Origin: a virus
IMG/VR virus record: IMGVR_UViG_3300049324_000002
Span: 32,001-96,000 of that record
Strand: one strand, 5' to 3'
DNA length: 64,000 nt
Below the pieces are notes generated by a model. The model had not been told where the DNA came from and made no database searches. It saw only the letters and a list, made by a program, of their open reading frames with translations. The position numbers were made by a program, and so were the translations under genes. Below, piece after piece: positions 25,843 through 53,270 of the stretch (position 1 is its first letter; the number at the start of each line of letters is the position of its first letter).

Positions 25843-26028
25843 CTACGCAACTGCTGGGTGCAACACTAAAGACAACACAACATACAAAATTATTCCAAGC
25901 ACCAGTAAAACAATGCCAGGACGGTACCCGCCAGGAACAAGATCTCCTGCACCCGGAATGACTCCCAGAATAATAAGAATCAAACCAATCACAGCCATGA
26001 TGACGCAGAGAGTAAGCAGAAGTCCCAT
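25843..26028 (-). CDS. Holin-like two-TM membrane protein
   Basis: Two hydrophobic helices in 61 aa; close to the endolysin. Confidence 0.6.
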   Translation of the reverse strand: MGLLLTLCVIMAVIGLILIILGVIPGAGDLVPGGYRPGIVLLVLGIILYVVLSLVLHPAVA

Positions 26029-26237
26029 TACACGTTCCTCGCGATAGAAGCGTTAGCCCAAAACATGACCTCTTCTATCTTCGTCAAGGCAAGAGCCTTC
26101 TCACGCCCGTCAGGTAGCTGCTGGTCAAATTCCTTAGCCAACGCTAAACAATTATTGCGAACAGACTGATGCTGCTCCACCTTCTTCTCATCAGGAGCAT
26201 GATAAGAAAAACGATTATCCAAATCAGAAGTAGCCAC
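26028..26237 (-). CDS. Acb2/Tad1-like helical hairpin protein (possible nucleotide-signal sponge)
   Basis: 'RFSYHAP...LPDGREKALALTKIEEVMFWANASIAR' matches the Acb2/Tad1 hairpin pattern as I know it. Confidence 0.7.
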   Translation of the reverse strand: MATSDLDNRFSYHAPDEKKVEQHQSVRNNCLALAKEFDQQLPDGREKALALTKIEEVMFWANASIARNV

Positions 26238-26245
26238 TACACTCC

Positions 26246-27172
26246 CTACTTAGGCTTCATCTCTCGGGTCACAACACCGCCAGCAGACTTAGTCACATCC
26301 CACGAAACAATAGCCTTAGTAGCACCATCAGGCAGCGGAGGATGAACCACTCGCTTATAATTATTATCAGGAGTCTGCTTCAAATCAACATCAGTCCACT
26401 TCCAGTCAACTAAGCCCCCCTTATCACCTTGAATGTAAACCTGAATCCAACAAGGTCCAATAACATCCAAGAGCGTAGCGGAAAGCCAAGCCTGACCAAA
26501 AATGCTAGAAGCAGACCCAGACGTAACAGAGATAACCCGACGCCCAGTACCTGAAATATCGAAATCTGTAAGCATCGGTTCTCCCACAATAGGTGAACTA
26601 GTTAATGCTGCCCAAATCTCAAACCGAAACAAATTCATATTAAAACTGCGGGTCGACCCATCCCCAATACCCGGATCCCACTTACCCTCAATCGAAGTCT
26701 CGAAATGACCTCGAACCCAATCAGGAGTGGTATGACCAAGAATCCCACAAATCACGCCACCAAGAATACGAGCCGACCTATACTGCTGAGGAGTCCAAGG
26801 CTGCAACCCCGGGTACATAACCTCATTGCCCCACACAAGCGGGTTAAACAACCTCGTCACAGGCAACGGACCCATACTCGGGCCGCCACTAGCACCAGCA
26901 TGATTAGCAGGCTGTGCAGCAATAATGTGGATCGTGCCGTCAGGATAGGTGCAACAATTGCACAGCGGCGGATCCAAATCTGAACGGCCATTCACCAAAA
27001 TAGAAAGACCGCCACCGTAACTATCGCCAGTATGGTGGGTAATCAAACCCTGCGGTCGGCCATTAGGAAACACATAACCATTACCACGAGTCTCCCAACC
27101 CGGCTCGAATGTGACAGGCACCTTATTATAACGGAGCCCATCAGCAACAGCATTCGCGAATCCTACACTCAT
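26246..27172 (-). CDS. Endolysin, N-acetylmuramoyl-L-alanine amidase (Amidase_2)
   Basis: 'ITHHTG', 'ANHAG', 'GNE', 'RGHFE..KWDPG' Zn-amidase motifs. Confidence 0.9.
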   Translation of the reverse strand: MSVGFANAVADGLRYNKVPVTFEPGWETRGNGYVFPNGRPQGLITHHTGDSYGGGLSILVNGRSDLDPPLCNCCTYPDGTIHIIAAQPANHAGASGGPSMGPLPVTRLFNPLVWGNEVMYPGLQPWTPQQYRSARILGGVICGILGHTTPDWVRGHFETSIEGKWDPGIGDGSTRSFNMNLFRFEIWAALTSSPIVGEPMLTDFDISGTGRRVISVTSGSASSIFGQAWLSATLLDVIGPCWIQVYIQGDKGGLVDWKWTDVDLKQTPDNNYKRVVHPPLPDGATKAIVSWDVTKSAGGVVTREMKPK

Positions 27173-29736: not shown

Positions 29737-30507
29737 CTATTCCTCCGAATCCCCAGGCTTAGCCTTCTTAGCACCAGCCTTAGGGGTGGTCGTCTTCGGA
29801 GGCTTCGTCAACAGATCCCATTGCGTGACCTTGTACCGGCCAAACCCACCAGACCGAGAAGCGCCAACACCCTGCTCCTGACCAGTCAGCCACACAATCT
29901 CCCAGAAACCATCACAAGCCGCATCAAAATCGAAGTCAGTAATAACCTGAAACTTCAATACAGCAGGAGTCACATGCTCCTTATAATGCGGGGCAGAACC
30001 ATACTGAGTATGCACGAACTGCTGCACAATACCAGAAGCAGTAAGCACGTTCTTGCCATCATCAGGATTAAAGATATGAACCTTATCATCCGTCACCATA
30101 ATATGCTCAGCAACGAACCCCTTAGCAAACTTACTCGTCACACCCCACGAGCGAAGCGGCACGTTCCCGGCCGCGACGGCGACCATCACAGCCTCTTTCA
30201 GCGCAGCCTTCACCTGACGACCATCAATGTACAGGCCCTCAGTATCTTTCTTAAACCCAGTGAAGTGCTTAGCCGAACCAACCAGCTTCACAGCCTCCTC
30301 AGCAGACACCGCGCGCTCAGCCATCGTCTCAGCAACAGCCCGACGAACAGCATCGTCTTTATCCTCAATCTTGGTACGCAACCAAGACTCCGCGACCTTC
30401 TCATCAGTAGGAATACCACCAGCAATCGAATCCACCTGAATCGTGGCCGCGTAACGCCACTTCCAAACCCTATCCTGTGCTGAAGCGAAAACAGAAGTAG
30501 CCGACAT
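29737..30507 (-). CDS. Stand-alone Cas7/Csm3-like RAMP protein
   Basis: N-terminal strand 'RYAATIQVDSIAGGIP'; 'LYIDGRQVKAALKEA' (compare RAMP P-x-IPGSSLKGALR); C-terminal G-rich loop 'GVGASRSGGFGRYKV'; basic tail; RBS AAGGAG. Confidence 0.8.
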   Translation of the reverse strand: MSATSVFASAQDRVWKWRYAATIQVDSIAGGIPTDEKVAESWLRTKIEDKDDAVRRAVAETMAERAVSAEEAVKLVGSAKHFTGFKKDTEGLYIDGRQVKAALKEAVMVAVAAGNVPLRSWGVTSKFAKGFVAEHIMVTDDKVHIFNPDDGKNVLTASGIVQQFVHTQYGSAPHYKEHVTPAVLKFQVITDFDFDAACDGFWEIVWLTGQEQGVGASRSGGFGRYKVTQWDLLTKPPKTTTPKAGAKKAKPGDSEE

Positions 30508-30600
30508 CAGATATGCTCCTTGTTATTTGTTGTCGAATCAACCCCGGACAAGCCGAGGCACAGCACCGTCACCATTGACGACAAACCCCTTATACCGAGA

Positions 30601-30845
30601 GATCGATATGAGTTGAATGAACAGACAAGTCGAGATGAATTGAAACGACTCGGCTAGAAAAGTCGGCGTTGAATAGTATCGAGTTGACGGGTGAAGTCGG
30701 TAGGGAGGCGACCCGATCAGGAGCGACATGAGTGGTCGATGCGAAGGGAAGCGAATAGAGAAGTCGGTGATGTATAGACTAGCAGCGAAATGACTTGGCT
30801 TGTCGAATCGACTTGATCTGATATGAACCGTCTTGAGAAGTCGAA
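30601..30845 (-). repeat. Short pentamer-periodic non-coding array (7 units) upstream of the RAMP gene
   Basis: Minus strand: CGAC TTCTC AAGAC GGTTC ATATC AGATC AAGTC GATT CGAC AAGCC AAGTC ATTTC GCTGC TAGTC TATAC ATCAC CGAC TTCTC TATTC GCTTC CCTTC...; spacings between CGAC marks are 38, 39, 28, 39, 34 and 33 nt. Confidence 0.9.
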
Positions 30846-30846
30846 A

Positions 30847-31404
30847 CTAAGAAGCAACAATAGAAGTACGGCCCTGAATCGAACTGTACATTCTATCAAT
30901 ATCCTCTTCAGAGAAGACAGCACCCACCGTCTGCTGGCCAACCCGGGACGCCAGCGCGAGCAAGAACGCCTCCTCCAACAAAGCAGTATGAGCTGAACGT
31001 GAATACCTAGCAGCCGCGAAATTCAAATCATCACGATTCATGTCAAGCAAACGACGCTGAGTATTCTCACCATCAACAGCGTAACGTACGGTCTTCCAAT
31101 GACTAATCGCACTGGAATCCCCGCCCGTAAACTTGCGAGCATCTGCCGCAAACGCAGACCGTGCCGCATTCGACCGAGCCCGCGCTCGAGCGGAGGCAAG
31201 CCGATGCTTAATCTGCTCAGCCAAGAACGTACTAGAATGCTCCAACAGCCAACCAGTAAGCAACTCAGGATCAGTTTTCTTCAACCTACTGACAAGTGTC
31301 CACGAAGCAACAGAAGGAATCAAATCCGACTCAGCATCTAAAAGAATATCGGTAATCATTTTAGACATCTCAGCAGAGTAATTCCTGCCTGGATCTTCAT
31401 CCAC
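30847..31404 (-). CDS. Hypothetical protein directly upstream of the array and RAMP gene (candidate accessory)
   Basis: 185 aa, mostly helical; its stop abuts the first array unit; RBS GAGGAG. Confidence 0.7.
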   Translation of the reverse strand: MDEDPGRNYSAEMSKMITDILLDAESDLIPSVASWTLVSRLKKTDPELLTGWLLEHSSTFLAEQIKHRLASARARARSNAARSAFAADARKFTGGDSSAISHWKTVRYAVDGENTQRRLLDMNRDDLNFAAARYSRSAHTALLEEAFLLALASRVGQQTVGAVFSEEDIDRMYSSIQGRTSIVAS

Positions 31405-47626: not shown

Positions 47627-49106
47627 GAAACCCCAGGCATCTGCTTAGCAATCCAATCAAGCAGCCACTTAGGCTGAAAGCATTTGTTGTGCAAAGATAT
47701 AGTAATCATATCAGGAGGAACCCATCCATCAGGATCATCCCGAACTTCATCAAAAAAGCCAGTCACTAAAACAGAATCCACACGCCACCGCACGTCACGA
47801 CGCGCGAAGTTAACCTCAACCTCTACCACATCAAATAACGGACCATGAATCGACAACCGAATAGGATCCTGATCAATCACAGAAGCAACAATAGTCTGTG
47901 CACCACGAATACTCGTCAACTGAAAAGCCATCACGAAATCCCACCCGCTGGCTTACGCTCCATCACCCAAGACCACAACCAACCCTTAATACCATCAGGG
48001 AACAACATATGGTCCGTCTCATAAGCGCGAACACCATCTTCACTCATCAAAAAACCAGCAACCCTCACAGCATCCACACACCACTCGCTGCCAGTCAACT
48101 GACTACATTTATAGTCAACGCGAAATCTAGTGACAAGCAACTGCTCGCGGCGAGCCGGGAAAAGCGAAATAGGAGGCATCTCCTCGACCTCCGTATAAAC
48201 GGAGTGAGTGCCAGCCAGACTCACGACCTTAATACCCATGACCTATCCTACCGCAGGCACGTCAGGACGATGCTCCTCAGCAAAATCCAACAACCAACCC
48301 GGGACCCTGTCCGGCAACACCTCAATCTCCACACAACCTAAATCATAACCAATAGGAACACCACTCGCGCGTGCGTAACTACCTCGCGCTTTCAACATAA
48401 AAGTAGTCCAAACAGCAGACCCTGGCTCACGACGATAATGAACAGACACAGCATTAGGCAAAAACTTCAAATCCATAATATCAGAAGGAACACTCAAAAT
48501 AGGCTCACCAACCACAGACCCTGACACCACATGCCTCTCCGCAACACGCGCATGATACAAACTAAACGGAGGGGTAATCGTCGTGTAAGTAACATCCGTG
48601 ATTCTTATCGTCATCGTCGTCCTTGATCTCATAGAACTCAGTATCACCATAAACACACTCGAAAGACTCTTCGCCGCGATCCGCTTTCTCTAACACACGC
48701 TCACGCAGGAACGCCTTACTAGAACCCTCCGGAGCCTCTACCACAGTACAAATAACAGACTCCTGCGATACAATCACTCGGAAACGCATCGTGACCCCGT
48801 CTCCGTAGGCGAAAACCGAAACACCAAATCAACAACCCAGGTATTCGACAACTCATGATTATCAAAATGAAGATAAGTTGGAAGAGAACCAATACCACTA
48901 CCGTCAGAACGAACCATCATACCAGATATCTTCACATCGACAACCTCCCACACACCACCAGTTTTATCTGCCCTAGCGTATTTAATCTCCAAAAAATCAA
49001 CTTCGATAAACAACGGAGGATTAGTACCAGGAATATGCAATTTATCAAAACCATCAACATTTAATTTAACAGTGCAAGTAGCAGACGCACTAGATACATT
49101 AGACAC
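47623..49106 (-). CDS. Paralog family A, second cluster (47623, 47931, 48243, 48774) plus small ORF 48562-48789
   Basis: Same motif as 42.8-44.4 kb; the first gene's RBS (GAAGGAG) abuts the 3' end of the large array. Confidence 0.75.
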
Positions 49107-49119
49107 AACAAACTCCTTC

Positions 49120-52100
49120 GTAACGTCGGAAAGGAAAAGACGGGAATCGCACTGACCCGGGAAGTCGGATGAGAACTGAAGTGGAAACGAATGGTCGGGC
49201 TCGAGTAGTCGAGTAGAACTGAATGGACGTGCATAGTCGGAACCGATTGGAAGGGAATAGACACGATCTGAGTAGTCGAATCGACGCGATCCGGCCAGGA
49301 ATGGAGTAGTCGGTAAAGAATAGACTCGACACGTAAAGACAGAAGCGATCAGTCGAAACGACCGGGCACGAAACGCAGTGACGTGGCTTGTCGGAAAGAA
49401 CGGAAGTGCGCCGCCAGGAGTAGTCGAGCCGATCGGATGCGATAGGGCGTGACGTGGCTTGTCGGTGATGGCCAGTAATGACCGGGGGCGACTCGTGTAG
49501 TCGGGTCAGACCAGACTCGCCTTGGACATGAGTAGTCGAAGGACCAGAAACGACTCGCCGTGACATGTCGTATTGTACCGACGTGATCCGCCTGGTCTCG
49601 AATCGCGAAGTCGGAGCTGGATGGGGGAGCGGAGAGAAGTCGGAGCTGAGTGGAACGGAGATGAGGAGTCAGTAGGGGACGACAAGATCTGAATGGTCGA
49701 ACAGAAACGACGAGATTTGTGCGGTCAAAAGAGTCGAAACGATCTGACCCGATCCGATTCGTCGCATTGCAGTGATTGGAACTGACTTGGCTGGTCGAAC
49801 AGAATCGAAAGGACATGGCTTGTCGACGGGAACGAGAGGGCTTGACTGGTCGATCGGAGTCGGACGGAGCTGGCTAGTCGAAATGAATCGCCCGGACCTG
49901 AAAGAAGTGACTTGTCGAACAGGCACGAAATGATATGGATTGTCGAACAGAATCGAAAGGACTTGACTGGTCGATGGAAATGAAAAGACGTGAGTTGGCT
50001 GGTCAAGCGACTCGACTAGGCTGGAACTGACTCGTCGGTAAAGGATCGTCAGGAATCGGAATGAGTAGTCGACAGGAATCGAATAGAGTAGACTCGTCAG
50101 ATCGGGATCGCTGGGATTCGAATAGACTTGTCGGAAAAGAGTAGACTTGACAGGACTAGACGTGAGTGGTCAGACAGTCATGGCTTGACTTGAAACGAGT
50201 GGTCGGTGCGGTCACGATCTGACTCGAAATGAGTGGTCAAAAAGAACTGACCTGACGAGACAGGGTTAGTCGAAAAGAACTGGCCTGACCCGGGGCGACC
50301 GGACGTGAGAAGTCAAGCGAATCGAACAGACATGTTAGTGACCGGATGTGTCGAATCGGCATGACCTGACTTGTAGTGAGAAGTCGAAACGTATCGAATC
50401 GAAAGCGATAGGCCTTGGAGTGTCAAACGAAGTGACTCGGCCAGGCGTGACTGGTCAACAGAATCGACTCGTTGACGAATAGTCAAAGTGGTTCGGATCG
50501 ATTCGCCTCGGCTCGCGTAGTCAACTGAGAAGGAAAGATCTGAATGGAAGAGTCGGACTGGAAACGTCGAGGGCTGACCTGAAACGAGTAGTCGGACTAG
50601 GAATGCCAAGAAACGATTAGCATCGAGTAGTCGGAATAGAATAGCTAAGGCAAGACAAGATCAGTCGGAACAGACAGGACTCGCAAAGGAACAGAAGTGC
50701 CATGAGTAGTCGGTCCGACGTGAATCGACAATGTTAGGAATAGTCGTACGGGGCCGATACGCCTCGACTTGAACTGTCGAAACGAAATGACTTGGCGGGC
50801 ATGGAGAAGTCGGTCTAGAAACGACAAGATCTGCAACGGCTAGTCAGATCGGAGGGAATTGACTGGTATGGAAGCGGGAAGTCGGATGGGGAATGACTGG
50901 ATTGGAAAGCGGGTAGTCACGCGAGACGAATCGACACGCATAGTCGAACAGACATGATAGGAAACGCGTCGAGTAGTCGTCAAGGACTGACCCGACACGA
51001 GTAGTCAAAAGGCACGCATCGTCTGGAAACGAGTAGTCAAACGGGGTGAATCGCCACGCACAGTCAACCGACTCGATCTGACCCGTAAGGAAACGAGTAG
51101 TCGGAAAGAAAGGAAGCGAAGACGGAACGCGTCGAGTAGTCGGAACGGATGAGTAATGAAATCGCATCGCCACGAGTAGTCGGCATGGCAGGGGAGAGGC
51201 GAGAGTAGTCGAAAGGACGTGAACCGATATGAATAGATTCGTCGTATCGAGCTGAGGGGATGAGAAACGCATCGCGTAGTCAGACGGGACTGGACATGAT
51301 TAGTCGGATAAGACGTGAGCGGTAAAGAGTAGTCGGAAGTGTGCCGCTAGGACCTGACACGTCAAGCGAACAGAGTCGATCTGACCCGTCAACAGAAGTG
51401 ACACGTAAAGAATAGTCGGACCCGGAAGGTAGGGAACGGACCTGACACGTCACCAGAGCAGAAGTGGCACGCAAAGAGTAGTCAACTGACACGGAGTGAG
51501 TGGACGTGGATAGCGTAGTCAATCGAGACGACCCGAAACGCAAGGAGAAGTCGGAAAAGATACGGACAGAAAGTGGATTGAGTAGTCATACGAGACGACA
51601 CGGAACGTAAGGAGAAGTCGTGCGATTCGAATCGATAGGAATCGAAGTAGAGTAGTCGAACGGACCCGACGTGGGAGGAAAAGGGCAGTCACCTGACCCG
51701 GCGCGGACCGAGCGGGAAAGAGTAGTCGAGGTGGAGAGCCCAGAATCGATCTGTCGAAGCGGACCGAACGGTCGTGAATTGAGTAGTCGTACTGAGTTGG
51801 AATCGAGTGGGAATGAGTAGTCAACTGAGCGGAATTGTACAGAGTAGTCAAACGAATCGAAGCGGTATCGCGCGGGAATGAGTAGTCGCACAGTATTGAG
51901 CGGGCTCGCGTTGAGTAGTCAACTGACACGAAGGGACGTGGCACGATCCGTCAGGTCACATCGCATCGAATAGACGTGAGTAGTCGAAACGAAGGGAAAC
52001 GACTCGGGTCGGCTCGAACAGAGATGTCGAAACGAATCGGCGGGATATGGAAAGTCGTAACGGGTCGGCGGGATGTGAGATGTCGAAAAGATAAGACACG

Positions 52101-53107
52101 ACCGGAAAAGAAGAAAGAGACGCGACTGGTCGAACGAAAAGAATCGGAATGGATCGCGTAGACTCGTCACCAGAACAGAGCGGGTCGGTAGTGATCTGTC
52201 GGGCGACAAGACACGGCGCGATGTGAAAAGTCGAAAGAAACGACCTGAACCGTAGAGCATCGACAGGTCGCTGGGAACGAATTGTCCGGGCCAGAGAAGT
52301 CACACGAGTGGGAACGAATAGGTCTGTCACTCGAAATGAGTTGACGCGGTAATGGGTAGTCAAGTGAAAAGACGTGGCAGGAATGGACGTGAGTAGTCAC
52401 ACGATCCGATATGATCGGAAGGGACTTGTCGGTATAGTAAGAATGGATCGGTGACGATCAGTCGAATAGACCGGGAACGACACAACGCGACATGAGTAGT
52501 CAATCGAATCGATAAGCGTGGCATGGACTTGTCGGACTAGCAAGGACCAGAAAAGATCTGTCGAACGGACCTGACTCGACCAGCATGGACATGAGTAGTC
52601 AACTGACACGGATCGAGTGGCATGGACTTGTCGAAACGAAGGGATACGCCTCGACTTGACCTGTCAAAAGACCGGAAAGGACCAGACTCGACGCGATAGG
52701 TCACATCGAAACAAATAGACGCGAATCGTCAAACGATAAGACAAGATGCGAAACGACTGGACCTGTCGAAATGATCGGACGGGCAGTGATTTGTCAAATG
52801 AAGCGATTGGACGGGAAATGACACGTCACATGAATCGACCGGGAGCGACCCGATAGGTCGTACGAAGTGAAAGGGCAGGAAAGGACATGTCAGCATGAAC
52901 AGAAATGTAGCGATCTGAACGGTCGTGCAGAAGTGGGGTGATGGGAAAGGACATGTCAGTGCGAATGGACCGGGCATGACTTGCCACGTCAAGCGACCAG
53001 ACCAGACTAGACTCGAAGCGATAGGTCGAACAGGAACGACGCGACTCGATAGGATATGTCACAACGACCGGAATCGACGCGTCACGACGCGATATGTCAC
53101 ACGATAC
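49120..53107 (-). repeat. Large pentamer-periodic non-coding array (~4 kb, roughly 110 units by length estimate)
   Basis: Plus strand: runs of G(A)NNN pentamers punctuated by GTC(G/A), commonly GAGTAGTCG, e.g. GAACC GATTG GAAGG GAATA GACAC GATCT GAGTA GTCG; units mostly 28-44 nt in 5-nt steps; local base skew is inverted relative to the genes. Confidence 0.93.
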
Positions 53108-53198: not shown

Positions 53199-53270
53199 TG
53201 CCCCCAGGGAATTCTGCCATCCCGACCCACGCTTTAAAAGAGCGTTGCTCTGCTTCTGAGCTATAGGGGC
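53199..53270 (-). tRNA. tRNA-Lys(TTT) with non-canonical T-loop
   Basis: GCCCCTA/TGGGGGC acceptor; ACGCT-CTTTTAA-AGCGT; T-loop GGCAGAA. Confidence 0.8.

What the first reader, a model, noticed from the sequence alone, without database searches (positions are those of the whole stretch)
29737..31404. Orphan Cas7/RAMP-like gene coupled to a non-CRISPR pentamer-code array: candidate phage RNA-guided system
Seen: a 256-aa protein with RAMP hallmarks (YIDGRQVKAALKE; G-rich loop GVGASRSGGFGRY), with no cas1/2/3/5/6/10 and no CRISPR in the window. Directly upstream on the same strand is a 7-unit array. Each unit is a GAC/CGAC mark followed by 5-7 pentamers with near-invariant C at position 5, mostly T at position 4, and variable positions 1-3. 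An unknown 185-aa gene ends exactly at the array. Established: Cas7-family RAMPs polymerise along a guide RNA with a fixed nucleotide step. Inference: each subunit grips the fixed bases of one pentamer and displays the variable bases, giving a gapped, non-contiguous guide, possibly aimed at competing phages or host defence genes. From memory and unverified, this resembles recently reported phage VIPR systems (GGY-NN arrays). The motif here differs (NN-D-UC on the gene strand, GA-H-NN on the other), so it may be a distinct variant.
Basis: partly seen in the sequence, partly recalled or inferred. Interest (0 to 1): 0.97.

Follow-up and report, generated by a model that had tools for sequence, protein, structure and literature searches.

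The report
Phage VIPR system with C-anchored guides
This 146-kb actinobacterial phage carries a VIPR system, a CRISPR-related kind first described in 2026 (a lone Cas7-like protein, a partner gene and arrays of short guide RNAs written in five-base steps); this copy belongs to a large divergent clade in which only one C per step is fixed.

Summary
On the minus strand lie a 185-aa gene, then 6 clean units plus 1 degenerate unit of "GAC + 5-7 pentamers ending in C", then a 256-aa gene. Runs of in-phase C far exceed shuffles.

The 256-aa protein folds like Csm3/Cas7. It is homologous to the published SUSP1 Vipr family (hhalign 90.6%, E 1.3e-6). The virus record has no Cas1, no Pfam RAMP hit and no CRISPR RNA family.

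Nearly all of about 85 homologous loci carry the same C-phased arrays on the gene strand. In 47 of them the 185-aa gene sits upstream in the same order.

One distant family member is flanked by canonical NN-GGC repeats on the gene strand. That fixes strand and register: the invariant C is the Y of GGY, positions 1-2 are the NN, and positions 3-4 are degenerate (position 4 avoids G).

The genome holds two more arrays, one of about 4 kb, for about 120 guides in all. No targets were found.

Verdict: a VIPR system, a new variant of a known kind. This scan has already noted VIPR-like systems in many other genomes, and another agent reported the 4-kb array.

The parts
29737..30507 (-). vipr-like gene: 256-aa lone RAMP (Cas7-like) protein
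   Evidence: ORF. The AF2 model has pLDDT 80. Foldseek against PDB puts Csm3 and type VII Cas7 on top at E 1.6e-6. hhalign to the SUSP1 Vipr family gives 90.6%, E 1.3e-6. It is the only copy in the genome.
30508..30597 (-). leader between array and vipr: conserved hairpin (about 30563-30584) and Shine-Dalgarno AAGGAG (30517-30522)
   Evidence: Sequence. The hairpin appears in the centroid fold. The segment is conserved in L110, L001, L111 and L112.
30598..30846 (-). vrRNA-like array: 6 clean units and 1 degenerate unit, each GAC + 5-7 pentamers N-N-K-U-C
   Evidence: Parsed. Shuffle test. A homologous array lies at the same place in relatives.
30847..31404 (-). conserved accessory gene (vap-like), 185 aa, all-alpha, no known family
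   Evidence: It lies upstream of array + vipr in 47 loci. Alignment A3. AF2 pLDDT 90.9. No Pfam, PHROG, PADLOC or NCBIfam match and no clear fold match.
49130..53100 (-). remote giant array with the same grammar: about 100 units, 4-8 pentamers each, first pentamer often TACTC
   Evidence: A sigma-70-like site at 53158-53129 (-) lies just upstream. A relative, G001, has a 5.4-kb counterpart.

Best explanation
This is a VIPR (Viral Interference Programmable Repeat) system of a divergent, mostly actinobacterial and actinophage clade.

Shown here:
- A three-part module is conserved: accessory gene, pentamer array, lone Cas7-like gene.
- The protein is homologous to published Vipr.
- The array grammar is conserved across the family.
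- Strand and register are inferred from comparative evidence.

Inferred by analogy with the SUSP1 system:
- The minus strand is transcribed from the accessory gene through the array into vipr.
- The transcript is cut at or near the (C)GAC-UWCYC handle into units of 28-43 nt.
- One Vipr protomer binds each pentamer. It holds the invariant C (the Y of canonical GGY) and tolerates any base at position 3 and any base but G at position 4.
- Positions 1-2 of successive pentamers are displayed and pair discontinuously with double-stranded DNA, one skipped target base per step. This would block transcription of a competing mobile element or a host gene.
- With only 4-8 steps per guide, specificity probably needs many guides. 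About 120 are encoded in three arrays.
- The role of the 185-aa partner protein is unknown.
For: Fold:
- Foldseek of the AF2 model (pLDDT 80) gives 98 PDB matches at E <= 1e-3. The listed top matches are Csm3 or type VII Cas7 chains; the best is 6ifl_F at E 1.6e-6, TM 0.44/0.53.
- The best viral matches are lone viral RAMPs.

Homology to Vipr:
- The SUSP1 vipr gene was located by its GG-phased arrays.
- Profile-profile comparison of the diverse family alignment A4 with the SUSP1 Vipr family A2 gives 90.6%, E 1.3e-6 over 137 columns. The aligned columns include helix-1 and the G-loop. An earlier, shallower alignment gave 46.7%, E 2e-4.

Context:
- No Cas1, no Pfam RAMP match and no CRISPR family in a virus record estimated 95% complete.

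Array-protein coupling:
- Of 86 loci fetched by protein similarity, all but a handful carry dense C-phased pentamer arrays on the gene strand. Most lie directly upstream of the gene.
- The GAC / CCGAC-TWCCC handle recurs in family members down to 29% protein identity.

Strand:
- In 54 of 81 loci the array ends no more than 51 nt before the start codon, and in 32 no more than 29 nt. The last handle abuts the Shine-Dalgarno, so the vipr mRNA must read through the array.
- The phage-type promoters I modelled score well only on the minus strand; the best plus-strand hit is weak and far from any array.
- In SUSP1 the arrays are also on the gene strand.

Register:
- L072 belongs to this family (hhalign 99.2%, E 3e-19 to A1; only E 0.011 to the SUSP1 family).
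- It is flanked on the gene strand by six elements of about 12-17 NN-GGC repeats with a short conserved tail.

Informative positions:
- Position 3 composition (T 42, G 34, C 13, A 11%) matches the phage's synonymous sites (T 47, G 36, C 10, A 7%). Positions 1-2 do not.
- In homologous units of close relatives, substitutions fall 12 times at positions 1-2, 29 times at positions 3-4 and never at position 5.

Turnover:
- Two phages with identical Vipr proteins differ by about 88 nt of array.
- Guide sets of this phage and the related 153-kb phage G001 share almost nothing.
Against: - There are no expression or RNA-end data, so strand and processing are inferred.
- No target was found under any rule tested (see Tried and rejected), so the pairing rule is assumed from SUSP1.
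- Guides specify only 8-16 bases, which alone is poor specificity in a bacterial genome.
- The accessory protein has no detectable relation to any family, so it cannot be equated with vap1-6.
- I could not see the preprint's figures or tables, so the VIPR type is unassigned.
- The substitution test rests on few unit pairs, and these were chosen by overall similarity.
Confidence: 0.85

Rival explanations
1. Same system, but the guide is the opposite (plus) strand: G-D-N-N-N pentamers ending in GAGUAGUC. This would be a relaxed 'GGY-NN' or 'GAC/NN'-type code with a short 3' tail.
For: Published vrRNAs have G-based fixed bases and a 3' tail. A later preprint lists GAC/NN among non-canonical motifs, and the plus strand here reads GA[A/C]-NN. 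In this reading the conserved handle falls at the 3' end, where the canonical tail lies.
Against: The arrays lie on the gene strand whether they are upstream or downstream of the gene. In many loci they abut the ribosome-binding site of vipr, so the C strand is certainly transcribed. No phage-type promoter on the plus strand lies near the arrays. SUSP1 and the family member L072 both carry their G-G-Y on the gene strand, which places our C at the Y position.
Confidence: 0.1
2. The arrays act at the DNA level, as phased binding sites (iteron- or centromere-like) for the 185-aa protein or another DNA binder. The RAMP protein would be unrelated to them.
For: The GAC/GTC marks recur every 28-43 bp in steps of 5. 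The accessory protein is uncharacterised.
Against: The arrays co-occur with the RAMP gene in loci down to 25-30% identity, including loci without a detectable accessory gene. Strict strand polarity relative to the gene is not expected for DNA sites. The variable dinucleotides and rapid unit turnover fit guides, not iterons. The protein family is homologous to an experimentally shown RNA-guided effector (papers).
Confidence: 0.03
3. The RNAs are decoys or competitors rather than guides for this phage's own protein. They would load onto or titrate the Vipr proteins of rival phages, or merely regulate vipr translation as a long 5' UTR.
For: Satellites and phages encoding solo vrRNAs that redirect others' VIPR are described (abstract). 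Two of the three arrays are far from vipr.
Against: The same grammar and handle occur next to vipr and in the remote arrays. The genome encodes its own matching protein. The module order is conserved.
Confidence: 0.05

Closest known systems
Type II VIPR of Escherichia phage SUSP1 and the Pseudomonas fulva prophage (bioRxiv 10.64898/2026.04.26.720920 and .720927)
   Same: Both have a lone small RAMP with an RRM core, helical bundle, thumb and G-loop. Both have a two-gene locus without cas genes or CRISPR, are phage-borne, and carry 5-nt-step arrays on the gene strand flanking the gene. The variable dinucleotide has the same register relative to a fixed pyrimidine. Guide sets are hypervariable between relatives.
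   Different: Protein similarity is detectable only by profiles. The fixed motif here is N-H-C, not G-G-Y. Units have 4-8 steps, not 9-16. The published tail, with a pseudoknot in the SUSP1 clade, is replaced by a short GAC-UWCYC handle. Units abut one another. This genome has about 120 guides against four in SUSP1. The accessory protein is unrelated by sequence.
VIPR 'staggered' arrays and non-canonical repeat motifs (fig. S18 legend of 10.64898/2026.04.26.720920; section 2.3 of 10.64898/2026.10.21.760802)
   Same: The units are back-to-back guides in which the end of one marks the start of the next. The pentamer motifs depart from GGY. A Vipr-like fold lies next to them.
   Different: The texts I could read list these motifs: YNNGG, NNNGG, YNNNG, NNNNG, GAC/NN, CAC/NN, WGT/NN and TGH/NN. 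None is 'only the pyrimidine fixed' on the gene strand. GAC/NN could be this kind of array read on the other strand. I could not see the figures, so identity with a published type is open.
Family member L072 (IMGVR_UViG_3300033150_000513), found here
   Same: It belongs to the same protein family (hhalign 99.2% to A1). Its G-loop matches the family consensus, one residue different from this protein's, and its arrays are on the gene strand.
   Different: Its arrays are separate elements of about 12-17 canonical NN-GGC repeats with a conserved tail. Within one protein family the code therefore ranges from GGC to N-H-C.
Cas7/Csm3 backbone subunits of type III and type VII CRISPR-Cas effectors
   Same: They are the best solved-structure matches. 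They share the G-rich loop and the general mode of RNA-dependent stepping along a guide.
   Different: No crRNA repeats, no Cas5/Cas6/Cas10/Cas1 and no second RRM. The step is 5 nt rather than 6. The Pfam RAMP model does not match.

Membership tests
VIPR system (Vipr + vrRNA + vap) | Vipr protein: minimal RAMP fold (RRM core, thumb, G-rich loop) without a second RRM | tested here: met
   AF2 model with pLDDT 80. Foldseek top matches are Csm3/Cas7 at E 1.6e-6. The G-loop is nearly invariant in the family. The protein is 256 aa with a single domain.
VIPR system (Vipr + vrRNA + vap) | Sequence homology to published Vipr proteins (the SUSP1 / X1U2U4 lineage) | tested here: met
   hhalign of A4 against the SUSP1 Vipr family A2 gives 90.6%, E 1.3e-6 over 137 columns. 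Pairwise BLASTP finds nothing. The relation is therefore remote.
VIPR system (Vipr + vrRNA + vap) | Non-CRISPR context: no cas operon and no CRISPR array | tested here: met
   Cas1 and Pfam RAMP models give no match in the 146-kb record. Rfam finds only tRNAs in the window. Other cas families were not searched one by one.
VIPR system (Vipr + vrRNA + vap) | Flanking tandem 5-nt repeats of GGY/NN or a related consensus, with hypervariable NN | tested here: met
   The 5-nt phased arrays are conserved across the family. The consensus here is NN-N-H-C. It is linked to GGC by L072. Positions 1-2 behave as the informative pair.
VIPR system (Vipr + vrRNA + vap) | An accessory vap gene (vap1-6) next to vipr | tested here: inconclusive
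   A 185-aa neighbour is conserved in 47 loci. It matches no profile library or solved fold. Sequences of vap2-6 were not available. The SUSP1 neighbour shows no similarity to the RAMP profile A1; I did not compare it with the 185-aa protein.
VIPR system (Vipr + vrRNA + vap) | vrRNAs are expressed, bound by Vipr, and direct gapped recognition of double-stranded DNA (1-nt skip) | not testable with these tools
   This needs small-RNA sequencing, pull-down and reporter assays. Computational target searches gave no signal.
CRISPR-Cas class 1 (type III/VII) effector | Cas7 accompanied by Cas5/Cas10 or other effector subunits, and a repeat-spacer array | tested here: not met
   There is a single RAMP gene in the genome. 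No Cas1 or Pfam RAMP match. No direct repeats of CRISPR type.

The most novel reading that the evidence does not exclude
This large actinobacterial/actinophage clade has evolved a recognition code that no longer uses the two guanines. Only one cytosine per step anchors the RNA, and G is excluded at the preceding base. The clade would then be orthogonal to GGY-type Vipr proteins, which also occur in Actinobacteria. It would work with swarms of very short guides (4-8 steps, more than 100 per genome) that act combinatorially, rather than with a few long guides.
Probability: 0.4. Interest if true: 0.75.

Novelty: new variant of a known kind. Interest (0 to 1): 0.6.

Why it matters
VIPR was described only in 2026, and its experiments cover a few GGY-type systems from Proteobacteria.

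- This locus belongs to a family of at least 837 sequence clusters (50% identity). The family keeps the protein and the 5-nt step but relaxes the fixed motif to a single pyrimidine.
- It packs guides back to back and, in 150-kb phages, expands them to arrays of 4-5 kb.
- If the minus-strand reading is right, the Y pocket alone can set the register. That bears on how the code evolved and on how many mutually orthogonal VIPR tools could be built.
- The family also offers a natural series, from NN-GGC (L072) to NN-N-H-C, for working out which protein residues read the fixed bases.

Tried and rejected
1. Profile libraries (Pfam, PHROGs, PADLOC, NCBIfam) and PDB sequence searches gave nothing for either protein. 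The ESM Atlas gave nothing for the accessory protein.

2. Accessory protein fold. Foldseek against PDB has no match at E <= 1e-3. VIA-align has a best Z of 5.9, on a helical hairpin only.

3. My first argument was that loss of the SUSP1 G-readers (D177, W178) in the G-loop explains the loss of GG. I withdrew it. L072 has the same G-loop and still uses GGC repeats.

4. Codon mimicry of the variable triplet. Triplet frequencies correlate with the phage's sense codons (r 0.68). Stop codon TAG is not depleted (8 seen, 9.8 expected), and the correlation for the first two bases alone is only 0.47. I read position 3 as neutral rather than as a wobble copy.

5. Target searches under paired sets NN or NNN with 0-3 skipped bases (the own-genome search also tried 4- and 5-base sets) showed no excess over column-shuffled guides:
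- own genome;
- 678 kb of related loci;
- the complete relative G001, in both directions;
- adjacent-unit pairs with gaps of -1 to 7, against 1.17 Mb;
- long guides (9 or more steps) from relatives, against 1.1 Mb.

6. Exact-pattern scans with the 1-nt skip rule:
- A 12-step pattern from a 16-step guide of L044 gave 0 hits in IMG/VR.
- One 8-step guide of this phage gave 8 hits, 5 of them independent and unrelated in context, which is the chance level.
- Two other 8-step guides gave 1 and 0 hits in 301 genomes of the phylum of a Streptomyces genome that carries a family member.

7. RNA folding of the array shows no more structure than shuffles on either strand.

8. The phage has no near relative in the phage collection by nucleotide search.

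Full report
**What is there**

All genes in this part of the window are on the minus strand. A 185-aa ORF lies at 30847-31404. It is followed by a 339-nt gap and then a 256-aa ORF at 29737-30507. Downstream of that is a clamp-loader gene (Pfam DNA_pol3_delta2).

Read on the minus strand, the gap starts 4 nt after the stop codon with GAC. It holds six clean units at 30842, 30804, 30765, 30737, 30698 and 30664. Each unit is GAC plus 5-7 pentamers that end in C. The linker between units is 0 or 1 nt. A seventh, decayed unit starts at 30631. A 90-nt leader follows, with a conserved hairpin and the Shine-Dalgarno of the 256-aa gene.

**Is it more than chance?**

- Runs of five in-phase C number 20 in 249 nt. 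In 1000 dinucleotide shuffles the mean is 0.83 and the maximum 7.
- Tandem Repeats Finder and a Fourier test miss the array, because each GAC shifts the phase by 3.
- The whole virus record is 146,490 bp with a CheckV completeness of 95%.
- In it, runs of six in-phase G on the plus strand number 207, against 6-17 in shuffles.
- Those runs are concentrated in three places: genome 23.2-23.8 kb (outside the window), the array of this finding, and a tract of about 4 kb at window 49,130-53,100.
- I parsed 118-120 units of 4-8 pentamers. The first pentamer is often TACTC or TTCTC, which makes a short handle.

**The protein**

- No profile library recognises it, and PDB sequence searches are empty.
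- It has many relatives: 188 within the length window of the word-indexed search, and 837 clusters at 50% identity with E <= 1e-3 in the exhaustive search. Most come from soil metagenomes, viral contigs and actinobacterial genomes.
- An AF2 model built on 41 sequences reaches pLDDT 80.
- Foldseek against PDB returns 98 matches at E <= 1e-3. The listed top matches are Csm3 or type VII Cas7 chains; the best is E 1.6e-6.
- Against viral models the best matches are lone viral RAMPs.

**Link to VIPR**

VIPR systems are described in 2026 preprints. They consist of a lone RAMP (Vipr), vrRNAs of 9-16 YNNGG repeats plus a tail, and an accessory vap gene. Recognition of double-stranded DNA is gapped: one target base is skipped per repeat.

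- I located the SUSP1 vipr gene by its GG-phased arrays. They lie on the gene strand.
- I then built its family alignment A2.
- Profile-profile comparison with a shallow alignment of our family gave 46.7%, E 2e-4.
- With a diverse alignment (A4) it gave 90.6%, E 1.3e-6 over 137 colinear columns, including helix-1 and the G-loop.
- The genome has no Cas1, no Pfam RAMP hit and a single copy of this gene. Rfam sees only tRNAs.

**Conservation of the module**

- In 86 loci fetched by protein similarity, nearly all carry dense pentamer arrays whose invariant base is C on the gene strand. Most lie directly upstream of the gene, and some also lie downstream.
- The delimiter and handle (CCGAC followed by TWCCC in high-GC relatives) recur in family members down to 29% protein identity.
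- Position 4 is C in high-GC genomes, T here and A in one subclade. G is depleted everywhere.
- The 185-aa gene is found upstream of the array in 47 loci. Its model is confident (pLDDT 90.9) and all-alpha, but has no convincing structural or sequence relative.

**Strand and register**

Three observations point to the minus (gene) strand as the RNA.

1. Arrays keep the same polarity as the gene whether upstream or downstream of it, as in SUSP1.
2. In 54 of 81 loci the array ends no more than 51 nt from the start codon, and in 32 no more than 29 nt. The last handle touches the Shine-Dalgarno. No separate promoter can fit there, so the vipr message must include the array.
3. A weight matrix built from this phage's own leaderless promoters scores well only on the minus strand. 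A sigma-70-like site lies just upstream of the 4-kb array on that strand.

The register comes from L072.

- Its protein is a clear family member: hhalign 99.2%, E 3e-19 to A1, but only E 0.011 to the SUSP1 family.
- It is flanked on the gene strand by six elements of about 12-17 NN-GGC repeats with a short conserved tail.
- So the invariant C of our pentamers corresponds to the Y of GGY, positions 3-4 to the two G, and positions 1-2 to the NN.

**Which positions carry information**

- Position 3 has the composition of the phage's synonymous sites: T 42, G 34, C 13, A 11% against T 47, G 36, C 10, A 7%. Positions 1-2 do not.
- Position 4 has far less G (10%) than neutral sites (36%).
- I compared the array with that of a near-identical phage (L110, Vipr 98% identical). 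Over 34 aligned pentamers, substitutions fall 1, 1, 4, 5 and 0 times at positions 1-5.
- In six homologous unit pairs with L001/G001 the counts are 3, 7, 9 and 11 at positions 1-4.
- Together that is 12 at positions 1-2 against 29 at positions 3-4, with a binomial p of about 0.01. The sample is small and the pairs were chosen by overall similarity.
- This fits an NN specificity pair, two loosely constrained spacer bases and a C anchor.

**Dynamics**

- Two contigs encoding identical Vipr proteins differ by about 88 nt of array.
- This phage and the related 153-kb phage G001 share the layout, including a 5.4-kb array in G001. Only about six unit pairs are similar between them, against 0-3 in shuffles.

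**What remains open**

- No targets emerged from any local or public search. The pairing rule and the biological target are therefore inferred from SUSP1 only.
- Each guide specifies just 8-16 bases, which argues for cooperative or tiled action.
- I could not see the preprints' figures or tables, so I cannot say whether this clade is one of types I-VII.
- I also cannot say whether its arrays are the 'staggered' arrays of fig. S18, or whether the 'GAC/NN' motif of a later preprint is this grammar read on the other strand.

**Verdict**

The finding is genuine and correctly interpreted. It is a divergent variant of a kind published in 2026, not a new kind. This scan has already logged VIPR-like systems in well over a hundred other genomes, and another agent has reported the 4-kb array of this genome.

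Noticed in passing
window 49130-53100 (-): An array of about 4 kb with roughly 100 GAC-delimited pentamer units in the same grammar. A tRNA and a sigma-70-like site lie before it. It runs straight into the Shine-Dalgarno of a 110-aa ORF (48774-49106) that has no Pfam match.
   Followed up: partly
genome 23,150-23,850 (about 8.2 kb before the window start): A third array of 13 or more units with the same grammar and the TACTC handle.
   Followed up: partly
window 26028-26237 (-): A 69-aa protein with an Acb2/Tad1 hairpin domain (Pfam E 9e-21). It is probably a sponge for cyclic-nucleotide defence signals. It lies next to the amidase endolysin at 26246-27172.
   Followed up: partly
window 53199-53270 (-): A tRNA called by Rfam (45.6 bits) but missed by ARAGORN, immediately upstream of the giant array.
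   Followed up: no
L001:6832-9198: In the closest Logan relative the clamp-loader gene is 788 aa instead of 381. About 1.2 kb is inserted after residue 51, which suggests an intein or homing-endonuclease insertion.
   Followed up: no
G001 (record behind L002) 145,400-150,800: The related 153-kb phage, which has terminal repeats, carries a 5.4-kb array region near its end, plus four smaller arrays at 92-94 kb and around its vipr gene at 105-107 kb.
   Followed up: partly
L041:5596-5870: A run of 55 in-phase pentamers that is really a 15-nt repeat. It is probably a coding pentapeptide repeat. It is a false positive of the C-phase scan, not a guide array.
   Followed up: no
genome 96,900-128,500 (minus strand, mostly beyond the window end): About 20 near-identical leaderless promoter cassettes: TTGCGTG, then a TGCTATGCT-type -10, then ATGACGAAC. 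All are on the minus strand. I used them here only to build a promoter matrix.
   Followed up: partly
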